Source: a virus
Lineage: Duplodnaviria > Caudoviricetes
IMG/VR virus record: IMGVR_UViG_3300022841_000019
Coordinates: 1 to 59,588 of that record
DNA length: 59,588 nucleotides
Strand: one strand, 5' to 3'
The notes below the pieces were generated by a model. That model ran no database searches. It had not been told where the DNA came from and saw nothing but the letters and a program-made list of their open reading frames with translations. The position numbers and the translations under genes were made by a program. Of this stretch, positions 40,433 to 51,031 are shown in pieces; within the stretch, counting starts at the first letter, position 1; every line of letters begins with the position of its first letter.

Positions 40433-40756
40433 TTATCTTTCCTTGTCTCTGTCTTTGTTATCATACTTTGTTAATTTATAAGTGCTGTTTGTTGTTTTGA
40501 ACTCCACGTAAGTAGGAGTTTGTTTAATTATTTCTGTAATAAAAGTTGTTCGCCACGTGAAGAACCTATCGAATGGTGACATTAGCAGGCTAAACCCTAT
40601 CCTAGGCTCATCTCGTTCTTTTTTAAAAGTACCATCCTTATTCCATTCCAACCATGTGATATCTTTAGATTCTTTAACCAGTTTGTCATGTTCTCTAACT
40701 AGCGTCCAGTTATCTCTGATATCAACAGGTATTGTTATTTGGTTTATCTTAGTCAT
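40433..40756 (-). CDS. hypothetical protein
   Basis: ORF with W.TT.ITEI....FKT.NS.Y motif; start MTKIN. Confidence 0.55.
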   Translation of the reverse strand: MTKINQITIPVDIRDNWTLVREHDKLVKESKDITWLEWNKDGTFKKERDEPRIGFSLLMSPFDRFFTWRTTFITEIIKQTPTYVEFKTTNSTYKLTKYDNKDRDKER

Positions 40757-40964
40757 CTGTATTAAGTTTATGTTCTTCAAGTAAATCATACATTGCTTCT
40801 TTATAACTCTCTAAAGTGAAATCAGTTTCATCATGCTTCCATTTTCTCCAAAAATTATGTTTAAGTTCCCAAATAAATCCAGCCATGTCAGATGCTTTTA
40901 TGCATTCCTTATGAGATATTTTATCGTCCTCGTTATCTAAGTCAAATTCTAGTATTGCTTTCAT
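40749..40964 (-). CDS. hypothetical protein
   Basis: 71 aa, MKAILEFDL. Confidence 0.55.
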   Translation of the reverse strand: MKAILEFDLDNEDDKISHKECIKASDMAGFIWELKHNFWRKWKHDETDFTLESYKEAMYDLLEEHKLNTDD

Positions 40965-41392
40965 AATGTTACTTTTATATTACCTGTATCTTTTGTTACT
41001 AAATGAACGCTTGAGTCAACTGTTATATTACTCCTTGTTTCATCTGCTTTCCAAAATTCATGTCGAATCACTTGAATGATATCATAGGCTTCTCTACAAG
41101 ATTCATTTACTTTTTTATTATGAATACCCCAACTACCATTACGTGGGTGCGATGGATCTTGCATCAACATATTCCGTGGATGTATTAACATTGCATCTAC
41201 TGAATCTCTAACTTGATGAAACCTATTGTAATCTGTTCTTCCGTTCATTAACTTTAATTCATTAGACAAATGTCTTTCAAATGTTGGATGCTCTTTGATA
41301 ACTTCAAACTGCCCTATCCCTACTCTTGAGTAGAAATCTAATGCTCTTTGAATCAATCTTAATTGATTATTATTTAATTCTATTCTTGCCAT
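40961..41392 (-). CDS. hypothetical protein
   Basis: 143 aa, coupled. Confidence 0.6.
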   Translation of the reverse strand: MARIELNNNQLRLIQRALDFYSRVGIGQFEVIKEHPTFERHLSNELKLMNGRTDYNRFHQVRDSVDAMLIHPRNMLMQDPSHPRNGSWGIHNKKVNESCREAYDIIQVIRHEFWKADETRSNITVDSSVHLVTKDTGNIKVTL

Positions 41393-41394
41393 AA

Positions 41395-42072
41395 TTATAT
41401 TTCTAATATATTTCCGTTACTACTTAATCTACCAAACTTACCATCAGTTACCACAGACCCATTTGAGAATATAGTATTCTGAGTAGCTAATTGCATAGTT
41501 CCAGCATTAGTTATATCCACATTGTTATGGATATGACCGAAACACACCAACTTTAAGTTAGGTAATTTTAATACTCTCTTTTTTAATGCTGAACACCCGC
41601 AGAATTCTACTTCATGATTTCGGTTATACGCTAAATCCAAGATTCCTTTAGGTGGTCCATGCACCACTACAATATTTGTGTCGTCTGGTATCTGTTGCCA
41701 TACTTTATCTAACTTAGATCTTTGCTTCATAAAAGACCAATTCCCAAAAGAAGGTGTATGGGGGCTTCCCCATATCTTAACACCTTCAATAGTAATACTA
41801 TTATTTTCAAGATATATAATACCGTTATCATTAAAATCAGCTTCAATTACTAATTTAGACTCAATACTCGAATCGTGGTTTCCAGCTACAAATATCTTAT
41901 GTTCAATAGGCAGTGTTTTAAACCAATGTATAAAATCTCTTACTTCAGGTTCATTAGTATAAGGAGATCTAGGATTAGAACAGTCACCACTAAAGATGAC
42001 TATATCTATTCCTTCAGGTATTTCTAATAATTTGTGGTACGTGTGAGTATCACTTATGTGCCATATTTTCAT
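41395..42072 (-). CDS. calcineurin-like metallophosphoesterase
   Basis: SDTH, GD, GNHD, HGPP, GHIH. Confidence 0.9.
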   Translation of the reverse strand: MKIWHISDTHTYHKLLEIPEGIDIVIFSGDCSNPRSPYTNEPEVRDFIHWFKTLPIEHKIFVAGNHDSSIESKLVIEADFNDNGIIYLENNSITIEGVKIWGSPHTPSFGNWSFMKQRSKLDKVWQQIPDDTNIVVVHGPPKGILDLAYNRNHEVEFCGCSALKKRVLKLPNLKLVCFGHIHNNVDITNAGTMQLATQNTIFSNGSVVTDGKFGRLSSNGNILEI

Positions 42073-42124
42073 ATTGTTTGTTTTTAGTTTGATTTAGAAA
42101 CTATTAGTTGGTATATAGCACTAA

Positions 42125-44086: not shown

Positions 44087-44677
44087 TTAATTATTGTTTC
44101 TTAATATGTTCCATATTATTGCTTGATACTGATATCCTTTTAAACCTAATTTGTTTGCTTTGTTTATTGTTAGTTCCTTAATTTGTTGGTATGCTAATTT
44201 ACCTATTGAAGCACTATTAATTTTTATAGACTTATTCATGCACGCCCTTAAATGCCATATATCAATCGTTAAATGTGCATCACTTAATAAAGCTATATTA
44301 TATACAAAATTATATGTTTTAAGACTCTTACTTGTTATATGTATATTGTTGTTAACAATATTAAATGCCTTAAATTTATTTGTGTGAAAAGTGCAAACTT
44401 TTATATCTTCCGCAGGTACATTGTTTTTTATTGCTTCAAAAACTTTGTAAGCATCCAATATGTTTTGTTGCCATAAATTACGTGGTGATAAAGCAGAAAT
44501 GACACTTGCAGCTATAAAAGTATTGCTATCATATTTTGTTGCAATATCTTTGCAGATATCGTTAGCATCTTTGTACCAAACTAAACCGCTTTTAAAATCT
44601 TCTTCATTAGCTAAATTAAAATAATAGTCTAAATTTTTACTAATTTTTGATAGTTGGTATCTTGTTAATTTTTTCAT
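44087..44677 (-). CDS. conserved phage protein, DNA glycosylase-like helical fold suspected
   Basis: WY..A, ALSP...W..N, TIDIW..RA, QAI.W pattern. Confidence 0.5.
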   Translation of the reverse strand: MKKLTRYQLSKISKNLDYYFNLANEEDFKSGLVWYKDANDICKDIATKYDSNTFIAASVISALSPRNLWQQNILDAYKVFEAIKNNVPAEDIKVCTFHTNKFKAFNIVNNNIHITSKSLKTYNFVYNIALLSDAHLTIDIWHLRACMNKSIKINSASIGKLAYQQIKELTINKANKLGLKGYQYQAIIWNILRNNN

Positions 44678-44690
44678 TGGTTTAGTTATT

Positions 44691-45047
44691 TTATAATATC
44701 ATTACTTTATTGGTTAATGTATCAAAAATTGCTTTTTGTTTGTTTGTTGTTGCTGCTATTAAAGCAAAACTTAAATTGTCAATGTGCAAATTAGCGTCAA
44801 TAAAATATATATTTGTTTCTGTATCCATCCATCCGCCAATGCTACAAAATTGCTTCGATTCAATTGTTTTATTAATATTATTCCTTAAATCCGTATCATT
44901 TGAAGGGTTAACGCCCTTGTATAAGTTTTTAATACTTACTATGTATCTACTTTTTGAACTATTTAATTTAATGGTGAAATTCTGTTTATTAATACAGTTA
45001 TTTAAAATTAACTGAATTTTGTCTAAATTGTTATTTAATCGTGCCAT
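44691..45047 (-). CDS. hypothetical phage protein
   Basis: 118 aa, GGW.D....YFID...NKQKAIFD. Confidence 0.55.
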   Translation of the reverse strand: MARLNNNLDKIQLILNNCINKQNFTIKLNSSKSRYIVSIKNLYKGVNPSNDTDLRNNINKTIESKQFCSIGGWMDTETNIYFIDANLHIDNLSFALIAATTNKQKAIFDTLTNKVMIL

Positions 45048-45085
45048 CTTGTTTATGTTTTATAATTTTATTGTTTTAACTCTAG

Positions 45086-45157
45086 TTTTCCCACAAGGAA
45101 TCGAACCTCGAATGTCTGCATCAAAAGCAGATGTGTTACCAATTACACCATGGGAAA
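45086..45157 (-). tRNA. tRNA-Gln(UUG)
   Basis: Acceptor TTTCCCA/TGGGAAA, D arm GTGT-AATTGGTA-ACAC, anticodon arm TCTGC-TTTTGAT-GCAGA, T arm CGAGG-TTCGATT-CCTTG; followed by CTA, not CCA. Confidence 0.92.
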
Positions 45158-45492
45158 TAATAACCGCGGGCTGTATGAGACGACAAAGTTATTGTTGAAT
45201 AACTCCCAAGTAGTTGCCAAAACTACGATTTACTCTCTCAATAGAGCGTCTTATTAGATAGCGGCTGCATTGTTCTTTTGTATACCGTCGTAATGCTTGA
45301 CAACGGATGTAAGGCTCCCACTTTCCTTACTTGTTAGTCTAAAGTTTTTCTCTTTCCAGAAGCAGGTGACTAAATTATACTTTAACCTGAGTGGTTTTAA
45401 ATGCTAATCCCGTAGATTAACCGGGCAACTTAAGGTATTGCCTTTGATGGAATTACATCCTTACCAGGTCCTCCACCCTTTGAGCGGGGACT
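45158..45492 (-). ncRNA. large multi-junction structured RNA, family unknown
   Basis: ORF-free in the supplied track; one hairpin plus three multi-way junctions, each with three hairpins; several mismatches on + become G-U pairs on -. Confidence 0.7.
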
Positions 45493-45760
45493 AGTCTAAA
45501 AGCACGTAATAAGCATCTACATTGGCTCTCCTGAACCAATTTAAACCTTTATGAAAATTATTAATTAGTTCTTTTGTTACTGACTTAGGTTGGAGTTCCA
45601 TAACTAACTGTGCCCCTATTATAAAGTCGTACATAGATAATTCTGCTCCAGTAAGATCGTAACTAGCTCCGCTGAACGGGTTAGTTACAGTTTCACCAGA
45701 CGTGTATAGCACGCCATCAAACCATTTAGGTAATAATTGTTCTTTAGTATTATTGCTCAT
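45491..45760 (-). CDS. hypothetical early protein
   Basis: NPFSG...ELS.YD...W F...N..AY..LLD. Confidence 0.6.
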   Translation of the reverse strand: MSNNTKEQLLPKWFDGVLYTSGETVTNPFSGASYDLTGAELSMYDFIIGAQLVMELQPKSVTKELINNFHKGLNWFRRANVDAYYVLLD

Positions 45761-46193
45761 TATATCCTTCATTTAATAGTTCTTCTGTTATACTTTCTAA
45801 TGCTGTGTCATAAATACTACCATATAATGAATGCATTGCCTCCATTACATAATCTTCTTCTAAATCGCCTATGAAGATTTTACCACCCCCGCTTGAGTTT
45901 TTAATTCCCTCACATAAACAACCAGCTAAATCGCGATCATAATAGTGAACGTCCTCATTTATACTTATTTTGTCAGGGTTATAGGTTGCAATAAATACTT
46001 CGTAGCCATCTTGGGTACTCTCTGTATATATATAGTAATCCAAATTCCTTTCCCAGTCATCTGTTAATTCTACATTGTGATGATCTAAAACTAAATCCAT
46101 TAGTCTTTCGTCGTCATTGCACACGTCTTCACCAAATCCACTAGCCTTTAGTCTTTCGTTAATTAATTCGATTGTAATTAGTTTATTTGTCAT
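45750..46193 (-). CDS. acidic early protein
   Basis: 147 aa, D/E-rich. Confidence 0.6.
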   Translation of the reverse strand: MTNKLITIELINERLKASGFGEDVCNDDERLMDLVLDHHNVELTDDWERNLDYYIYTESTQDGYEVFIATYNPDKISINEDVHYYDRDLAGCLCEGIKNSSGGGKIFIGDLEEDYVMEAMHSLYGSIYDTALESITEELLNEGYNEQ

Positions 46194-46202
46194 GGTTGTT
46201 TA

Positions 46203-46589
46203 TTATACGGTTAAAGATTCTTTGTTTATTTCTTTCATGCCTCTATTTTTTATTAGATAATTTTTTAGATATAGTAATCTATCTATCTCTTGCGGAATCA
46301 ATACTCTAATAGTTCCTACGGATGATCGAACCAATAACCTACCTAAGTTACGATACATGTAATCTGTCATACGTTGACGAGTTAAGTTTAACTGATAACA
46401 AGTGTGTTTATCATATGTACGTACTATACCTGATTTATATACAGCGAAAAACTCATCTCCGTATTTAAACGCTATAGTTCCGTTTTTTAATTGCCTATCA
46501 CTGGTTACATTGTTTACAGCATAGCTTGTTGTTAACTCTTTAACGAACACAGCTACTTGTAGTTCTGCGTATGATTTATAATTTCTCAT
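46203..46589 (-). CDS. hypothetical early protein
   Basis: 128 aa. Confidence 0.55.
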   Translation of the reverse strand: MRNYKSYAELQVAVFVKELTTSYAVNNVTSDRQLKNGTIAFKYGDEFFAVYKSGIVRTYDKHTCYQLNLTRQRMTDYMYRNLGRLLVRSSVGTIRVLIPQEIDRLLYLKNYLIKNRGMKEINKESLTV

Positions 46590-47237: not shown

Positions 47238-47248
47238 TATTTATATTT

Positions 47249-47350
47249 TAGTAACTAGTGAGGAATCGAACCTCATACCCGTCGGTAGTCTGCAAGACTT
47301 CAAGCTCGTGAAAACGTTTACTTAATTCAAGTTGCAACCATACCTAGTTG
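47249..47350 (-). ncRNA. tRNA-like RNA with canonical T arm and acceptor stem but non-canonical body
   Basis: AACTAG/CTAGTT stem, TGAGG-TTCGATT-CCTCA, ends ACTA like the tRNA-Gln. Confidence 0.6.
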
Positions 47351-47464
47351 TCGGTTTTCGAGTTAAAGAGCCATCTACCGTAAAACTCTTGATTATATTA
47401 AAGGATCTTCGTCAGCTTAACAATTTAAAATACCATTCCCGTACTGAGCCTTTCACCGTAATCT

Positions 47465-48707: not shown

Positions 48708-49263
48708 TATAGATCAATTTTTTAATAATACCATCTACGACTGAAACTGTAGTACCACTAACTTCTGTATTATCTTTTAGAATAAATCTCGCACGAGGTA
48801 ATTTGCTAAGACCTAAGGAAACTAGTATTTCATTTAAGCACCAATCTCGTTGTATTATCTGGAAATCACTTGCAGTAGTTTTCTTTTCACACTTAGCAAG
48901 CTCTATCTTTAAAAAGTTTATTCTATCTTCTACACTATAGCTAGACAGCTCGTTTTCAATAAATCCAATGATTGTTTTTTCCACTAAACAATAAACACCA
49001 CTCTGTAGATCAGAGTAATTGTTTTTAAATAACTTACTGTATAAATTTCTAAACTCTGAGTAGTTTGTATCATCACCACCTATTGACCATTGCATATCGC
49101 ACTCTAAGTCTTCTATGGTCCTAACTTCTTTATCACCGATTATTTGAGTGTGAATATTTCCCGTGGCTTCAACTTGCGCTGTTATAAGTTTGTTCACTTC
49201 TACTACTACATCGTAGTTAAATCTTATCCAATCTGGTTTCTTTGTAATTGCTTTAATTTTCAT
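48691..49263 (-). CDS. hypothetical early protein
   Basis: 190 aa behind P7. Confidence 0.6.
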   Translation of the reverse strand: MKIKAITKKPDWIRFNYDVVVEVNKLITAQVEATGNIHTQIIGDKEVRTIEDLECDMQWSIGGDDTNYSEFRNLYSKLFKNNYSDLQSGVYCLVEKTIIGFIENELSSYSVEDRINFLKIELAKCEKKTTASDFQIIQRDWCLNEILVSLGLSKLPRARFILKDNTEVSGTTVSVVDGIIKKLIYNEYNK

Positions 49264-49323: not shown

Positions 49324-49518
49324 TTAGAATAAAGAACTGTAAACACACTCGCTCACAAAATCTAAGTGATCTGAGTTTATCTCATCGAGCATTTCCTCTG
49401 ACATATCTTCACCATTATACTCTGCCGACTCAATAAAAGCATCGACAAAATCTGGGTAGTCACTTGCGTCTATTCCGTCGACACTTACGTTGGTTACTAA
49501 TTTAAAATCTATAATCAT
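49324..49518 (-). CDS. small acidic early protein
   Basis: GID..DYPDFVDAFI.SA; very acidic. Confidence 0.6.
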   Translation of the reverse strand: MIIDFKLVTNVSVDGIDASDYPDFVDAFIESAEYNGEDMSEEMLDEINSDHLDFVSECVYSSLF

Positions 49519-49838
49519 TACTCTATTTCGTTTAAGTCTTCTTTTAATCTACTTATAAAGGAATCTTCTCCATCGTCTCCTGATAAATACCAATCTATTC
49601 TGTTGACATATGCTTCCGCTTGCTTTAAGATCTTGACTGCTTTTTTAAATTCTTCTTGAATATCCTTTCTGTAAGTATAATTATATCTTTCTTCTGGATG
49701 TTCTTCAAGGTATTCATCACAAAAGGAATAAAGCTCTTTTTTAGATATCTCTTCACCTTGGCTGTCTAACGTTGTTTGGATGTTATCCGCTATTTCTCCA
49801 ATTCTAAACTGGTGGTATTCAAACATTCCTCCGCTCAT
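49518..49838 (-). CDS. hypothetical early protein
   Basis: MSGG.F.Y...IDWYLSGDDGE motif. Confidence 0.65.
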   Translation of the reverse strand: MSGGMFEYHQFRIGEIADNIQTTLDSQGEEISKKELYSFCDEYLEEHPEERYNYTYRKDIQEEFKKAVKILKQAEAYVNRIDWYLSGDDGEDSFISRLKEDLNEIE

Positions 49839-49875
49839 TTTTTCTTGTTGTTTTTATATGTATTATTTACATCGA

Positions 49876-50091: not shown

Positions 50092-50328
50092 CTAAGACTG
50101 CTCTACGATCAAGAACGGTCTTACTACTGTTGGTATTGAAGCACTTGAAGTGTAACTTTTATACTTTTCCCAGCAAGGCATTTTTTCTAGTTTCTCTTGC
50201 ATTGCAGCGAAGGCGTCGTCATGGTTGTACTTCGATACTTTTCCATTGCTGAAGGTAACTTCTATTATTTGGTTTTTACCGATTAGTGATTTTCTAATGA
50301 AAAATCTTTTTGAACTTAGTGTACTCAT
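50092..50328 (-). CDS. early protein, paralog A
   Basis: 53/76 identical residues to 50801-51031 (hand count). Confidence 0.75.
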   Translation of the reverse strand: MSTLSSKRFFIRKSLIGKNQIIEVTFSNGKVSKYNHDDAFAAMQEKLEKMPCWEKYKSYTSSASIPTVVRPFLIVEQS

Positions 50329-50800: not shown

Positions 50801-51031
50801 TTAGTCTGTGATTAACACAGATCTAACACTCACTGGAATACTTGCGCTTGAAGTATACGATTTGTATTTCTCCCAACAATTCATACTGTTCAATTTATCT
50901 TTCATAACATCATATGCCTGGTCGTGATTATACTTCGATACATTACCATTTTTGAATGTAACTTCTATGATCTGATTTTGACCGATTAATGACTTTCTTA
51001 CTAAGAATCTTTTTGATTTTAAAATTTCCAT
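50801..51031 (-). CDS. early protein, paralog B
   Basis: Paralog of 50092-50328; first gene of the early arm. Confidence 0.75.
   Translation of the reverse strand: MEILKSKRFLVRKSLIGQNQIIEVTFKNGNVSKYNHDQAYDVMKDKLNSMNCWEKYKSYTSSASIPVSVRSVLITD

What the first reader, a model, noticed from the sequence alone, without database searches (positions are those of the whole stretch)
45158..45492. Ornate ~330-nt structured RNA fused head-to-tail to tRNA-Gln
Seen on the minus strand: a 5' hairpin; junction 1 closed by CCTGG/TCAGG (45468-45386) holding GATG/CATC, GGCAA/TTGCC and GTTAATC/GATTAGC; junction 2 closed by GTATA/TATAC (45380-45280) holding TTAGTC/GACTAA, GTAAGG/CCTTAC and CCGTTGT/ACGACGG; junction 3 closed by GCCGC/GCGGT and TAAGACG/CGTCTCA (45265-45163) holding CTCT/AGAG, GTAGTT/AACTAC and AGTTATT/AATAACT. 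It ends 5 nt before the tRNA, so RNase P cleavage could define its 3' end. Known: large phage ncRNAs such as GOLLD and ROOL occur near tRNAs. I could not assign it to a known family.
Basis: partly seen in the sequence, partly recalled or inferred. Interest (0 to 1): 0.85.

Follow-up and report, generated by a model that had tools for sequence, protein, structure and literature searches.

The report
Patchwork of small phage RNA modules
The 335-base gap before a phage tRNA-Gln gene looks like a chain of separate tRNA-sized RNA modules rather than one large ornate RNA, and one module belongs to a conserved, apparently undescribed small RNA family found in the tRNA clusters of other phages.

Summary
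The gap is non-coding and GC-rich (41% against 33% for the genome). It ends 5 nt before a sound tRNA-Gln(UUG). Rfam has no match.

The interpretation as one ~330-nt RNA with three multi-stem junctions is not supported. Folding energy is ordinary (z = -1.1 for the whole region, -0.4 for the insert).

Comparison shows a mosaic:
- The closest relative (L084) lacks 45113-45464. It keeps only the first 27 nt, fused to a 67-nt tRNA-like gene.
- 50 more distant relatives lack the region altogether.
- 45308-45402 ("M2") recurs at 84-95% identity in 13 other viral contigs. In 9 of them it lies just upstream of tRNA-His, and in 7 of those it fills the tRNA-Met/tRNA-His spacer.
- 45403-45460 recurs in yet another context in salt-lake metagenome contigs.

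Best reading: a horizontally assembled tRNA-island made of cassettes M1, M2, M3 and tRNA-Gln, probably co-transcribed and cut apart by tRNA-processing enzymes. M2 is a new small RNA family of unknown role. M3 has no homologues. Expression could not be tested.

The parts
45403..45490 (-). Module M1 (88 nt).
   Evidence: The first 27 nt after the stop codon are identical in L084, although the ORF upstream is only 85.6% identical. Contigs in runs X7 and X8 match 45403-45460 with 7 differences in 58 nt. Their upstream flank reads UUACCC-AAA-GGGUAA-AGGACCUGG, so the hairpin is kept through two double changes (CC/GG to UU/AA). Their match stops exactly at 45403. No Rfam tRNA hit.
45308..45402 (-). 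Module M2 (95 nt), a member of a conserved small RNA family. Elements: 5' tail AUUUAAAACC; P1 CAGGU (45385-45389) with ACCUG (45363-45367), a pseudoknot; P2 UUAGUC (45368-45373) with GACUAA (45334-45339); a GNRA-capped hairpin UCU-GGAA-AGA (45351-45360); and a 3' hairpin GUAAGG-AAAGUGGGAG-CCUUAC (45309-45330).
   Evidence: The 22-mer of the 3' hairpin is found in 13 viral contigs. blastn identity over the module is 84-95%. The alignment has 7 distinct sequences. Pair counts: 96.3% of cells paired against 26-44% when slid; P1 has 2 covarying pairs and P2 has 1. No Rfam hit.
45158..45307 (-).
   Evidence: The helices are present. Domain 3 has z = -1.1. No homologue was found anywhere. The five 17-mer hits in viral contigs have unrelated flanks.
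45085..45157 (-). tRNA-Gln (anticodon UUG).
   Evidence: ARAGORN; Rfam RF00005 at 63.7 bits, E 1.5e-11.
45113..45464 (-). Stretch present in the window and absent from the closest relative L084, where 16 nt stand in its place. It covers most of M1, all of M2 and M3, and the 5' two-thirds of tRNA-Gln.
   Evidence: blastn and MAFFT alignment of the window against L084. The L084 product is a 67-nt tRNA-like sequence with anticodon CAU, scoring 34.8 bits on Rfam tRNA.

Best explanation
The gap is a composite tRNA-island, not one RNA. Three non-coding cassettes (M1 88 nt, M2 95 nt, M3 150 nt) and a tRNA-Gln gene were brought together by recombination at a tRNA-like gene, in the early-gene region of a ~60-kb phage from salt-lake metagenomes.

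M2 is a real conserved small RNA. It has a compact fold: an H-type pseudoknot P1/P2, a GNRA-capped hairpin inside it, and a 3' hairpin with an invariant 10-nt loop. In larger phages it occupies a tRNA slot between tRNA-Met and tRNA-His.

Inferred mechanism. The cassettes are transcribed with the flanking genes and the tRNA as one precursor. RNase P cuts at the 5' end of tRNA-Gln, and in the larger phages at tRNA-His. tRNA 3'-end processing of the upstream tRNA, where there is one, frees M2 as a discrete RNA of about 100 nt. M2 then acts in trans in some tRNA- or translation-related role.

What is shown: the modularity, the conservation, the covariation and the co-orientation with tRNAs. What is inferred: transcription, processing and function.
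For: 1. The island is variable among close relatives. L084 matches the flanks at 85.6% and 97.7% nt but lacks 45113-45464. L085 has neither an RNA nor a tRNA here. All 12 contigs with the upstream gene have no gap after it. 0 of 12 and 0 of 38 whole related records match the region at E<0.005; the best hit is a 22-nt match at E 0.0065.
2. M2 recurs on its own in 13 of 13 contigs found with its 22-mer. It lies between tRNA-Met(CAU) and tRNA-His(GUG) in 7, between a tRNA called Val and tRNA-His in 1, and directly before tRNA-His in 1 locus that is cut upstream. There is no tRNA within 700 nt in 4. It is always co-oriented with the tRNAs and fills the spacer.
3. M2's structure is supported by pair counts.
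4. M1 recurs without M2 in contigs of X7 and X8, and that match ends at 45403. M2 homologues start at 45402.
5. GC is raised to tRNA level.
6. The window and the M2-bearing large phages share other genes at 70-83% nt (window 40753-42073 and 49518-49868). They also co-occur in runs X6 and X9. Exchange between them is therefore plausible.
Against: - There is no expression or end-mapping data; no RNA run holds the sequence.
- M3, which is 45% of the region, has no homologue, so nothing shows that it is a functional RNA or a separate unit.
- The M2 alignment has only 7 distinct sequences. They were picked through an exact 22-mer, so the 3' hairpin is invariant by selection. P1 has an A-G mismatch in 2 of the 7.
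- The M1 homologue is known only from a 58-nt laid piece and 30-nt flanks.
A larger fold specific to this array is not excluded.
- No Logan contig in the four laid runs spans 45330-45334. Continuity across M2 therefore rests on the original assembly.
Confidence: 0.6

Rival explanations
1. One reading: one ornate ~330-nt structured RNA with three multi-stem junctions, made as a unit and released by RNase P cleavage at tRNA-Gln.
For: All helices are pairable. GC is raised across the whole gap. No terminator-like site lies inside. GOLLD and ROOL show that large phage RNAs sit near tRNA islands (PMC12286853, passages read).
Against: Whole-region z is -1.09 and insert z is -0.44. The fold is 8 kcal/mol above the MFE. 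Homology borders at 45402/45403 and 45307/45308 split both junction-closing helices. The TCAGG strand pairs inside M2 in the homologues. No other contig carries two of the modules together.
Confidence: 0.1
2. Mostly debris. The gap is a recombination scar of a decaying tRNA array. M2 hitch-hiked, M1 and M3 are non-functional remnants, and only tRNA-Gln matters to the phage.
For: The locus is hypervariable. L084 carries a malformed tRNA-like chimera at the same spot; ARAGORN does not call it and Rfam gives 34.8 bits with a shortened acceptor. M3 is an orphan. Thermodynamic scores are ordinary.
Against: GC of 41% is kept in a 33% genome. The 27-nt start of M1 is 27/27 identical to L084 beside an ORF that is 85.6% identical. 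Its hairpin covaries in a third sequence. M2 is 95% identical to copies in unrelated phages. The modules do not resemble tRNAs.
Confidence: 0.2
3. A cis-acting leader. The gap carries the promoter and/or processing signals for tRNA-Gln, or for the downstream 118-aa gene.
For: It lies directly upstream of the tRNA. There are sigma-70-like matches inside, for example TTTAAA-16-TATAAT at 45401-45374.
Against: Promoter-like matches number 11 against 8.8 expected from shuffles. M2 occurs in the middle of tRNA arrays and in other intergenic regions, not tied to tRNA-Gln. L084 and L085 express the same downstream gene without it.
Confidence: 0.1

Closest known systems
T4 RNAC and RNAD (small stable RNAs encoded in the phage T4 tRNA region)
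   Same: They are non-tRNA small RNAs encoded inside a phage tRNA cluster, transcribed with the tRNAs, of unknown role (PMC3014915, one passage read). This matches M2's position in a tRNA slot of large-phage arrays.
   Different: No sequence relation was seen. blastn of the region and of an M2 locus against 50,697 phage records hit only tRNAs. Transcription of M2 is not shown. I did not have the T4 RNAC/RNAD sequences or structures to compare directly.
GOLLD (RF01998) and ROOL (RF03087)
   Same: Phage or prophage structured RNAs often found near tRNA islands (PMC12286853 and PMC5737381, passages read).
   Different: No Rfam match even at E<=10. GOLLD often exceeds 800 nt and both are single large RNAs. 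Here the 335 nt break into independent modules of about 90-150 nt.
Phage tRNA arrays containing non-canonical tRNAs
   Same: The cassettes are tRNA-sized, co-oriented, tightly packed with tRNAs and exchanged between phages.
   Different: M1, M2 and M3 lack a T-loop and a cloverleaf. There is no Rfam tRNA hit and no ARAGORN call even at an 80% threshold with introns allowed.
MALAT1/mascRNA-type 3'-end formation by RNase P (recalled, not from a call)
   Same: An upstream RNA whose 3' end would be made by RNase P cutting at an adjacent tRNA(-like) structure.
   Different: That is a eukaryotic nuclear system. No processing data exist here.

Membership tests
GOLLD / ROOL (Rfam RF01998 / RF03087) | Match to the family covariance model | tested here: not met
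   cmscan of the whole window at gathering score gave only tRNA. cmscan of 44900-45700 at E<=10 gave no GOLLD or ROOL match.
GOLLD / ROOL | A single large RNA conserved as a unit (GOLLD often >800 nt) | tested here: not met
   The region is 335 nt, and its parts recur separately in other contigs. The size statement comes from PMC12286853.
tRNA (RF00005), for modules M1-M3 | Cloverleaf with T-loop, scored by covariance model or ARAGORN | tested here: not met
   Only tRNA-Gln is found at E<=10. ARAGORN at thresholds down to 80% and with introns finds only tRNA-Gln.
tmRNA / RNase P RNA / group I intron / small self-cleaving ribozymes (Rfam models) | Match to any of these covariance models | tested here: not met
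   No such match at E<=10 in the window region, at E<=1 in L204, L205 and L208, or at E<=10 in L209 6600-7020. ARAGORN's tmRNA search was negative.
Small non-tRNA RNAs of phage tRNA clusters (T4 RNAC/RNAD type) | Encoded within a tRNA cluster, on the same strand as the tRNAs | tested here: met
   M2 lies directly before tRNA-His in 9 of 13 loci and after tRNA-Met in 7, co-oriented. In the window it lies 150 nt upstream of tRNA-Gln.
Small non-tRNA RNAs of phage tRNA clusters (T4 RNAC/RNAD type) | Detected as a discrete stable transcript | not testable with these tools
   No RNA run holds the sequence. The laid runs are DNA contigs.
Small non-tRNA RNAs of phage tRNA clusters (T4 RNAC/RNAD type) | Sequence homology to T4 RNAC/RNAD | tested here: not met
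   blastn (distant mode) against 50,697 phage records returned only tRNA matches. No direct comparison with the T4 sequences was made.
HDV-like ribozyme (nested double pseudoknot) | P1-P2-P3-P1'-P4-P2' order with P3/L3 and a catalytic C | tested here: not met
   M2 has the order P1-P2-P1'-hairpin-P2' but has no P3; 0 nt lie between the P2 5' strand and the P1 3' strand. No Rfam hit. The fold definition is recalled.

The most novel reading that the evidence does not exclude
M2 is a new class of compact pseudoknotted small RNA that travels as a cassette in phage tRNA islands and is freed by the tRNA-processing machinery. It would have a phage-specific job, such as a decoy or modulator for host tRNA-targeting or translation factors, or a small ribozyme. 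On this reading the window's M1-M2-M3 array is a 'non-tRNA island' of several such cassettes, of which M1 and M3 are further, still rarer classes.
Probability: 0.3. Interest if true: 0.65.

Novelty: new variant of a known kind. Interest (0 to 1): 0.42.

Why it matters
Phage tRNA islands are known to hold tRNAs, and sometimes giant RNAs such as GOLLD and ROOL. T4 RNAC and RNAD show that small non-tRNA RNAs also live there, yet these have stayed without a function for decades.

M2 offers a second, independent example:
- It has a defined and conserved fold.
- It is exchanged at 95% identity between a 60-kb phage and roughly 160-kb phages of the same habitat.

That gives a tractable object for asking what non-tRNA cargo in tRNA islands does.

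For the scan itself there is a caution. Several adjacent tRNA-sized modules can be read by eye as one ornate RNA.

Tried and rejected
Searches for homologues that found nothing:
- Phage GenBank blastn of the region gave only tRNA-Gln hits. Megablast of 5 kb gave nothing.
- The downstream 118-aa ORF has no relative in viral contigs.
- Viral contigs pattern scans with 0 hits: the tRNA-Gln 3' half and the M1 hairpin pattern.
- The tRNA D-arm 17-mer gave 117+ loci, none with the insert.
- The domain-3 17-mer gave 5 loci, all chance matches with unrelated flanks.
- Genome contigs: the M2 22-mer and a degenerate M2 pattern both gave 0.
- nhmmer with the M2 profile over 216 loci found only the 13 known copies and the window.
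- Covariance model R1 over 100 tRNA-bearing loci gave two marginal hits (E 0.34 and 0.4). One of them, L107, shares the 11-nt start UAUUUAAAACC. Neither is claimed.

Ideas rejected:
- Degenerate tRNAs for domains 1-3.
- L084's tRNA-like gene as a copy of the large-phage tRNA-Met: only generic tRNA similarity.
- Coding remnants or micro-ORFs: nothing plausible.

Expression: no RNA holder listed.

Tools that did not serve:
- The look-up of sequencing runs was busy twice and answered the third time.
- Supplementary files of papers were not consulted. Rfam-external motif lists in the supplements of PMC5737381 could hold an M2-like motif that I could not see.

Full report
**Setting.** The window is a complete IMG/VR virus record of 59,588 bp, estimated 93% complete, with 33.2% GC. 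The finding lies in a run of small minus-strand genes. It sits between a 93-aa ORF (45491-45772) and a 118-aa ORF (44691-45047), neither with any Pfam or PHROG family. Further along the same strand are a metallophosphoesterase, a sigma-factor-like gene, a primase/helicase and ribonucleotide reductase genes.

**The observation.**
One has an A-C mismatch.
- tRNA-Gln(UUG) is at 45085-45157, 5 nt after the last helix.
- The gap has no ORF above 36 aa.
- Its GC is 41.2%, in the top 1.6% of 335-nt windows and about the same as the tRNA.
- Strict local hairpins are mildly enriched: 5 here, against a genome-window mean of 2.6 (9.8% reach 5) and a shuffle mean of 2.0 (3% reach 5).
- Folding energy is ordinary. 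The whole region has z = -1.09 and the insert z = -0.44. Domains 1, 2 and 3 have z = -2.1, -0.9 and -1.1, compared with -2.3 for tRNA-Gln.
- Rfam 15 gives only the tRNA, both at gathering score and at E<=10. ARAGORN with lowered thresholds and introns adds nothing.

**The locus in relatives.**
- Twelve viral contigs encode a relative of the 93-aa protein at 43-61% identity. In the 11 whose gene maps I examined (L013 was left out), the next gene follows directly, with no gap and no tRNA.
- blastn of the region against the 12 whole records, and against 38 further related records, gave nothing below E 0.005.
- A metagenome scan with the downstream 118-aa protein gave two close relatives.
- L084 aligns to window 46178-45465 at 85.6% and to 45112-44678 at 97.7%, but has 16 nt in place of 45464-45113.
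- The sequence L084 carries there (L084:2395-2461) is a 67-nt tRNA-like gene with anticodon CAU and a shortened acceptor stem. It scores 34.8 bits on Rfam tRNA, and ARAGORN does not call it.
Its T-arm and acceptor 3' strand match those of the window's tRNA-Gln at 31 of 33 positions.
- L085 has no RNA or tRNA at this site.
- The island is therefore a recent, variable insertion or replacement at a tRNA-like gene. The jump in identity across it (85.6% to 97.7%) marks a recombination joint.

**Parts of the region elsewhere.** Runs holding the sequence are salt-lake DNA metagenomes; no RNA holder is listed. Laying the contigs of X6-X9 on 44700-45900 showed contigs identical to the window, and also contigs of other genomes that match only pieces of it:
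- 45308-45402, with 4 differences and 1 gap in 95 nt (X6 record 5 and X9 record 24). Both flanks are unlike the window and read as a tRNA 3' end and a tRNA 5' end.
- 45308-45346 in another context (X6 record 6, X8 record 19).
- 45403-45460, with 7 differences in 58 nt (X7 record 11, X8 record 20). The upstream flank keeps the 5' hairpin through compensatory changes (CCGCUC-AAA-GGGUGG becomes UUACCC-AAA-GGGUAA). The match stops at 45403.

**The M2 family.**
- The 22-mer of the hairpin GUAAGG-AAAGUGGGAG-CCUUAC is found in 13 viral contigs. By CheckV these are fragments of 4-85% of larger genomes, the largest being 138.7 kb at 85% complete.
- blastn identity to window 45308-45402 is 94.7% over 95 nt in 4 loci and 84-92% over 48-75 nt in the other 9.
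- Position: M2 lies between tRNA-Met(CAU) and tRNA-His(GUG) in 7 loci (L204, L205, L206, L207, L212, L213, L214). It lies between a tRNA called Val(UAC) and tRNA-His in L216, and directly before tRNA-His in L211, which is cut upstream. In L208, L209, L210 and L215 there is no tRNA within 700 nt.
- Where tRNAs flank it, M2 is on their strand and fills the whole spacer. In L204, for example, tRNA-Met ends at 628, M2 runs 630-723, and tRNA-His starts at 730.
- Lengths are 96-129 nt. The longer forms carry an extra GAAA-capped hairpin.
- On the 7 distinct sequences, the proposed structure has 96.3% of cells paired, against 26-44% when the partners are slid. P1 (CRRGU/ACYNG, a pseudoknot with the loop of P2) has two pairs with changes on both sides, plus an A-G mismatch in 2 sequences. 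P2 (UYAGUC/GACURA) has one covarying pair (CG in 4, UA in 3). The 3' hairpin is invariant, which is expected because it was the search key.
- A small hairpin between P1' and P2' is GNRA-capped in the window and in five of the six distinct homologues, with different stems: UCU-GGAA-AGA, UCU-GCAA-AGA, CUC-GUAA-GAG, CUA-GAAA-UAG and CUC-GAAA-GAG. This is read directly; MAFFT misaligns it, so it was not counted. L205 has a different hairpin there.
- M2 has no Rfam match. It is absent from 50,697 GenBank phage records by blastn and from the genome collection by two patterns.
- A profile HMM and a covariance model found no further copies in the loci held.

- The homology borders (45464/45465, 45402/45403, 45307/45308) define M1 (45403-45490), M2 (45308-45402) and M3 (45158-45307).
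- The helix closing junction 1 (CCTGG at 45464-45468 with TCAGG at 45386-45390) joins M1 to M2. The helix closing junction 2 (GTATA at 45376-45380 with TATAC at 45280-45284) joins M2 to M3.
- In all 13 M2 loci the partner modules are absent. GTATA reads GGATA in 5 of the 6 distinct homologues. The CAGG of TCAGG is used by P1 inside M2.
- The junction scaffold is therefore not a conserved feature. In this one phage it remains physically possible.
The 5' hairpin is supported by covariation.
- The three hairpins of domain 1 lie in a segment that is conserved (88% identical in the X7/X8 contigs), but they could not be tested pair by pair.
- Domain 3 and the CCGTTGT hairpin (M3) have no homologue.

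**Most likely working.** The cassettes and tRNA-Gln are read through from the upstream genes. No terminator-like site lies in 44500-46300, and promoter-like matches are at the shuffle level. RNase P cutting at the tRNA 5' end gives the upstream RNA its 3' end. In the large phages, M2 is bounded by a tRNA on each side and would be released by the usual tRNA 5' and 3' processing. That step, and any function, are inference. [quoted passage not shown] GOLLD and ROOL share the genomic neighbourhood (PMC12286853 and PMC5737381, passages read), but neither their size nor their model fits.

The window shares other genes with the M2-bearing phages at 70-83% nt and co-occurs with them in runs X6 and X9. 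That fits recent cassette exchange.

**Caveats.**
- Only 7 distinct M2 sequences were available, and they were chosen by an exact 22-mer.
- The M1 homologue is known only from laid pieces.
- M3 is unexplained.
- There are no RNA data.
- Logan contigs in the four laid runs end within M2 (45330-45339), as expected at a sequence shared between genomes. Continuity there rests on the source assembly and on the fact that both flanks are neighbours in L084.

**Verdict.** The interpretation as a single ornate RNA is not supported. What is there is a patchwork tRNA-island, one cassette of which (M2) is a conserved, apparently undescribed small structured RNA family of phage tRNA clusters.

Noticed in passing
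window 47248-47349 (-), within the non-coding gap 47238-47464: A second RNA element, a member of a large family. 41 viral contigs hold its 21-nt T-arm/acceptor motif. The framework is 5' RCUAGGUAUGG, then a variable hairpin of about 20-70 nt (often with a conserved 16-nt loop UARACGUUUUYACGAG), then ACUACYGACGRGUA, a T-arm UGAGG-UUCGAUU-CCUCA and an acceptor 3' strand CUAGYU. The acceptor pairing covaries (AGCUAG/CUAGCU against AACUAG/CUAGUU). ARAGORN in default mode finds no tRNA in 40 of the 42 extracts; its two exceptions are ordinary tRNAs in L080 and a tRNA-Thr call in L051. Rfam gives no tRNA or other hit at E<=10.
   Followed up: partly
L012 560-835, L007 800-1075, G002 48740-48968 (-): In some relatives the tRNA-like element above is preceded by about 280 nt of conserved, GC-rich (47% in G011) non-coding sequence containing further T-arm-like hairpins. 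No Rfam hit at E<=1. Its position relative to the neighbouring genes differs between relatives.
   Followed up: partly
L084 660-850: The closest relative carries two tRNA-like elements in tandem. The second has an acceptor GGGGGUG/CACCUCC, which includes a G3-U70-type pair, and a T-arm GACGG-UUCGAAU-CCGUC. ARAGORN calls neither.
   Followed up: no
L208 2270-2330, L209 6640-6700 (-): In the four M2 loci without tRNAs, M2 is followed by another conserved non-coding stretch (GCCYGAUUCUAGUGCAUUAGAUAGGGAUCGAAGCACCCUGAUGACGGGU) that contains a CUGAUGA word. There is no hammerhead or other relevant Rfam hit.
   Followed up: partly
window 40753-42073 and 49518-49868: These genes, including the metallophosphoesterase at 41395-42072, are 70-83% identical in nucleotides to genes next to the tRNA array of the large M2-bearing phages (L207, L213). 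In those phages the phosphoesterase region is present twice.
   Followed up: no
L107 1642-1747 (-): A marginal hit of the M2 covariance model (23.2 bits, E 0.4) that starts with the same 11 nt, UAUUUAAAACC, and has a similar hairpin layout. It may be a distant relative of M2 or it may be chance.
   Followed up: no
window 50092-50328 and 50801-51031 (-): Two small ORFs both match the same stretch of L008 at 61% and 57% amino-acid identity. They are likely paralogues about 700 nt apart.
   Followed up: no
L007 810-860 against M2 (L209 6704-6818): The leader of the second RNA family shares the short words UCAGGUUUAA and GUGGGAGCC with M2, in the same order. nhmmer sees no relation.
   Followed up: no
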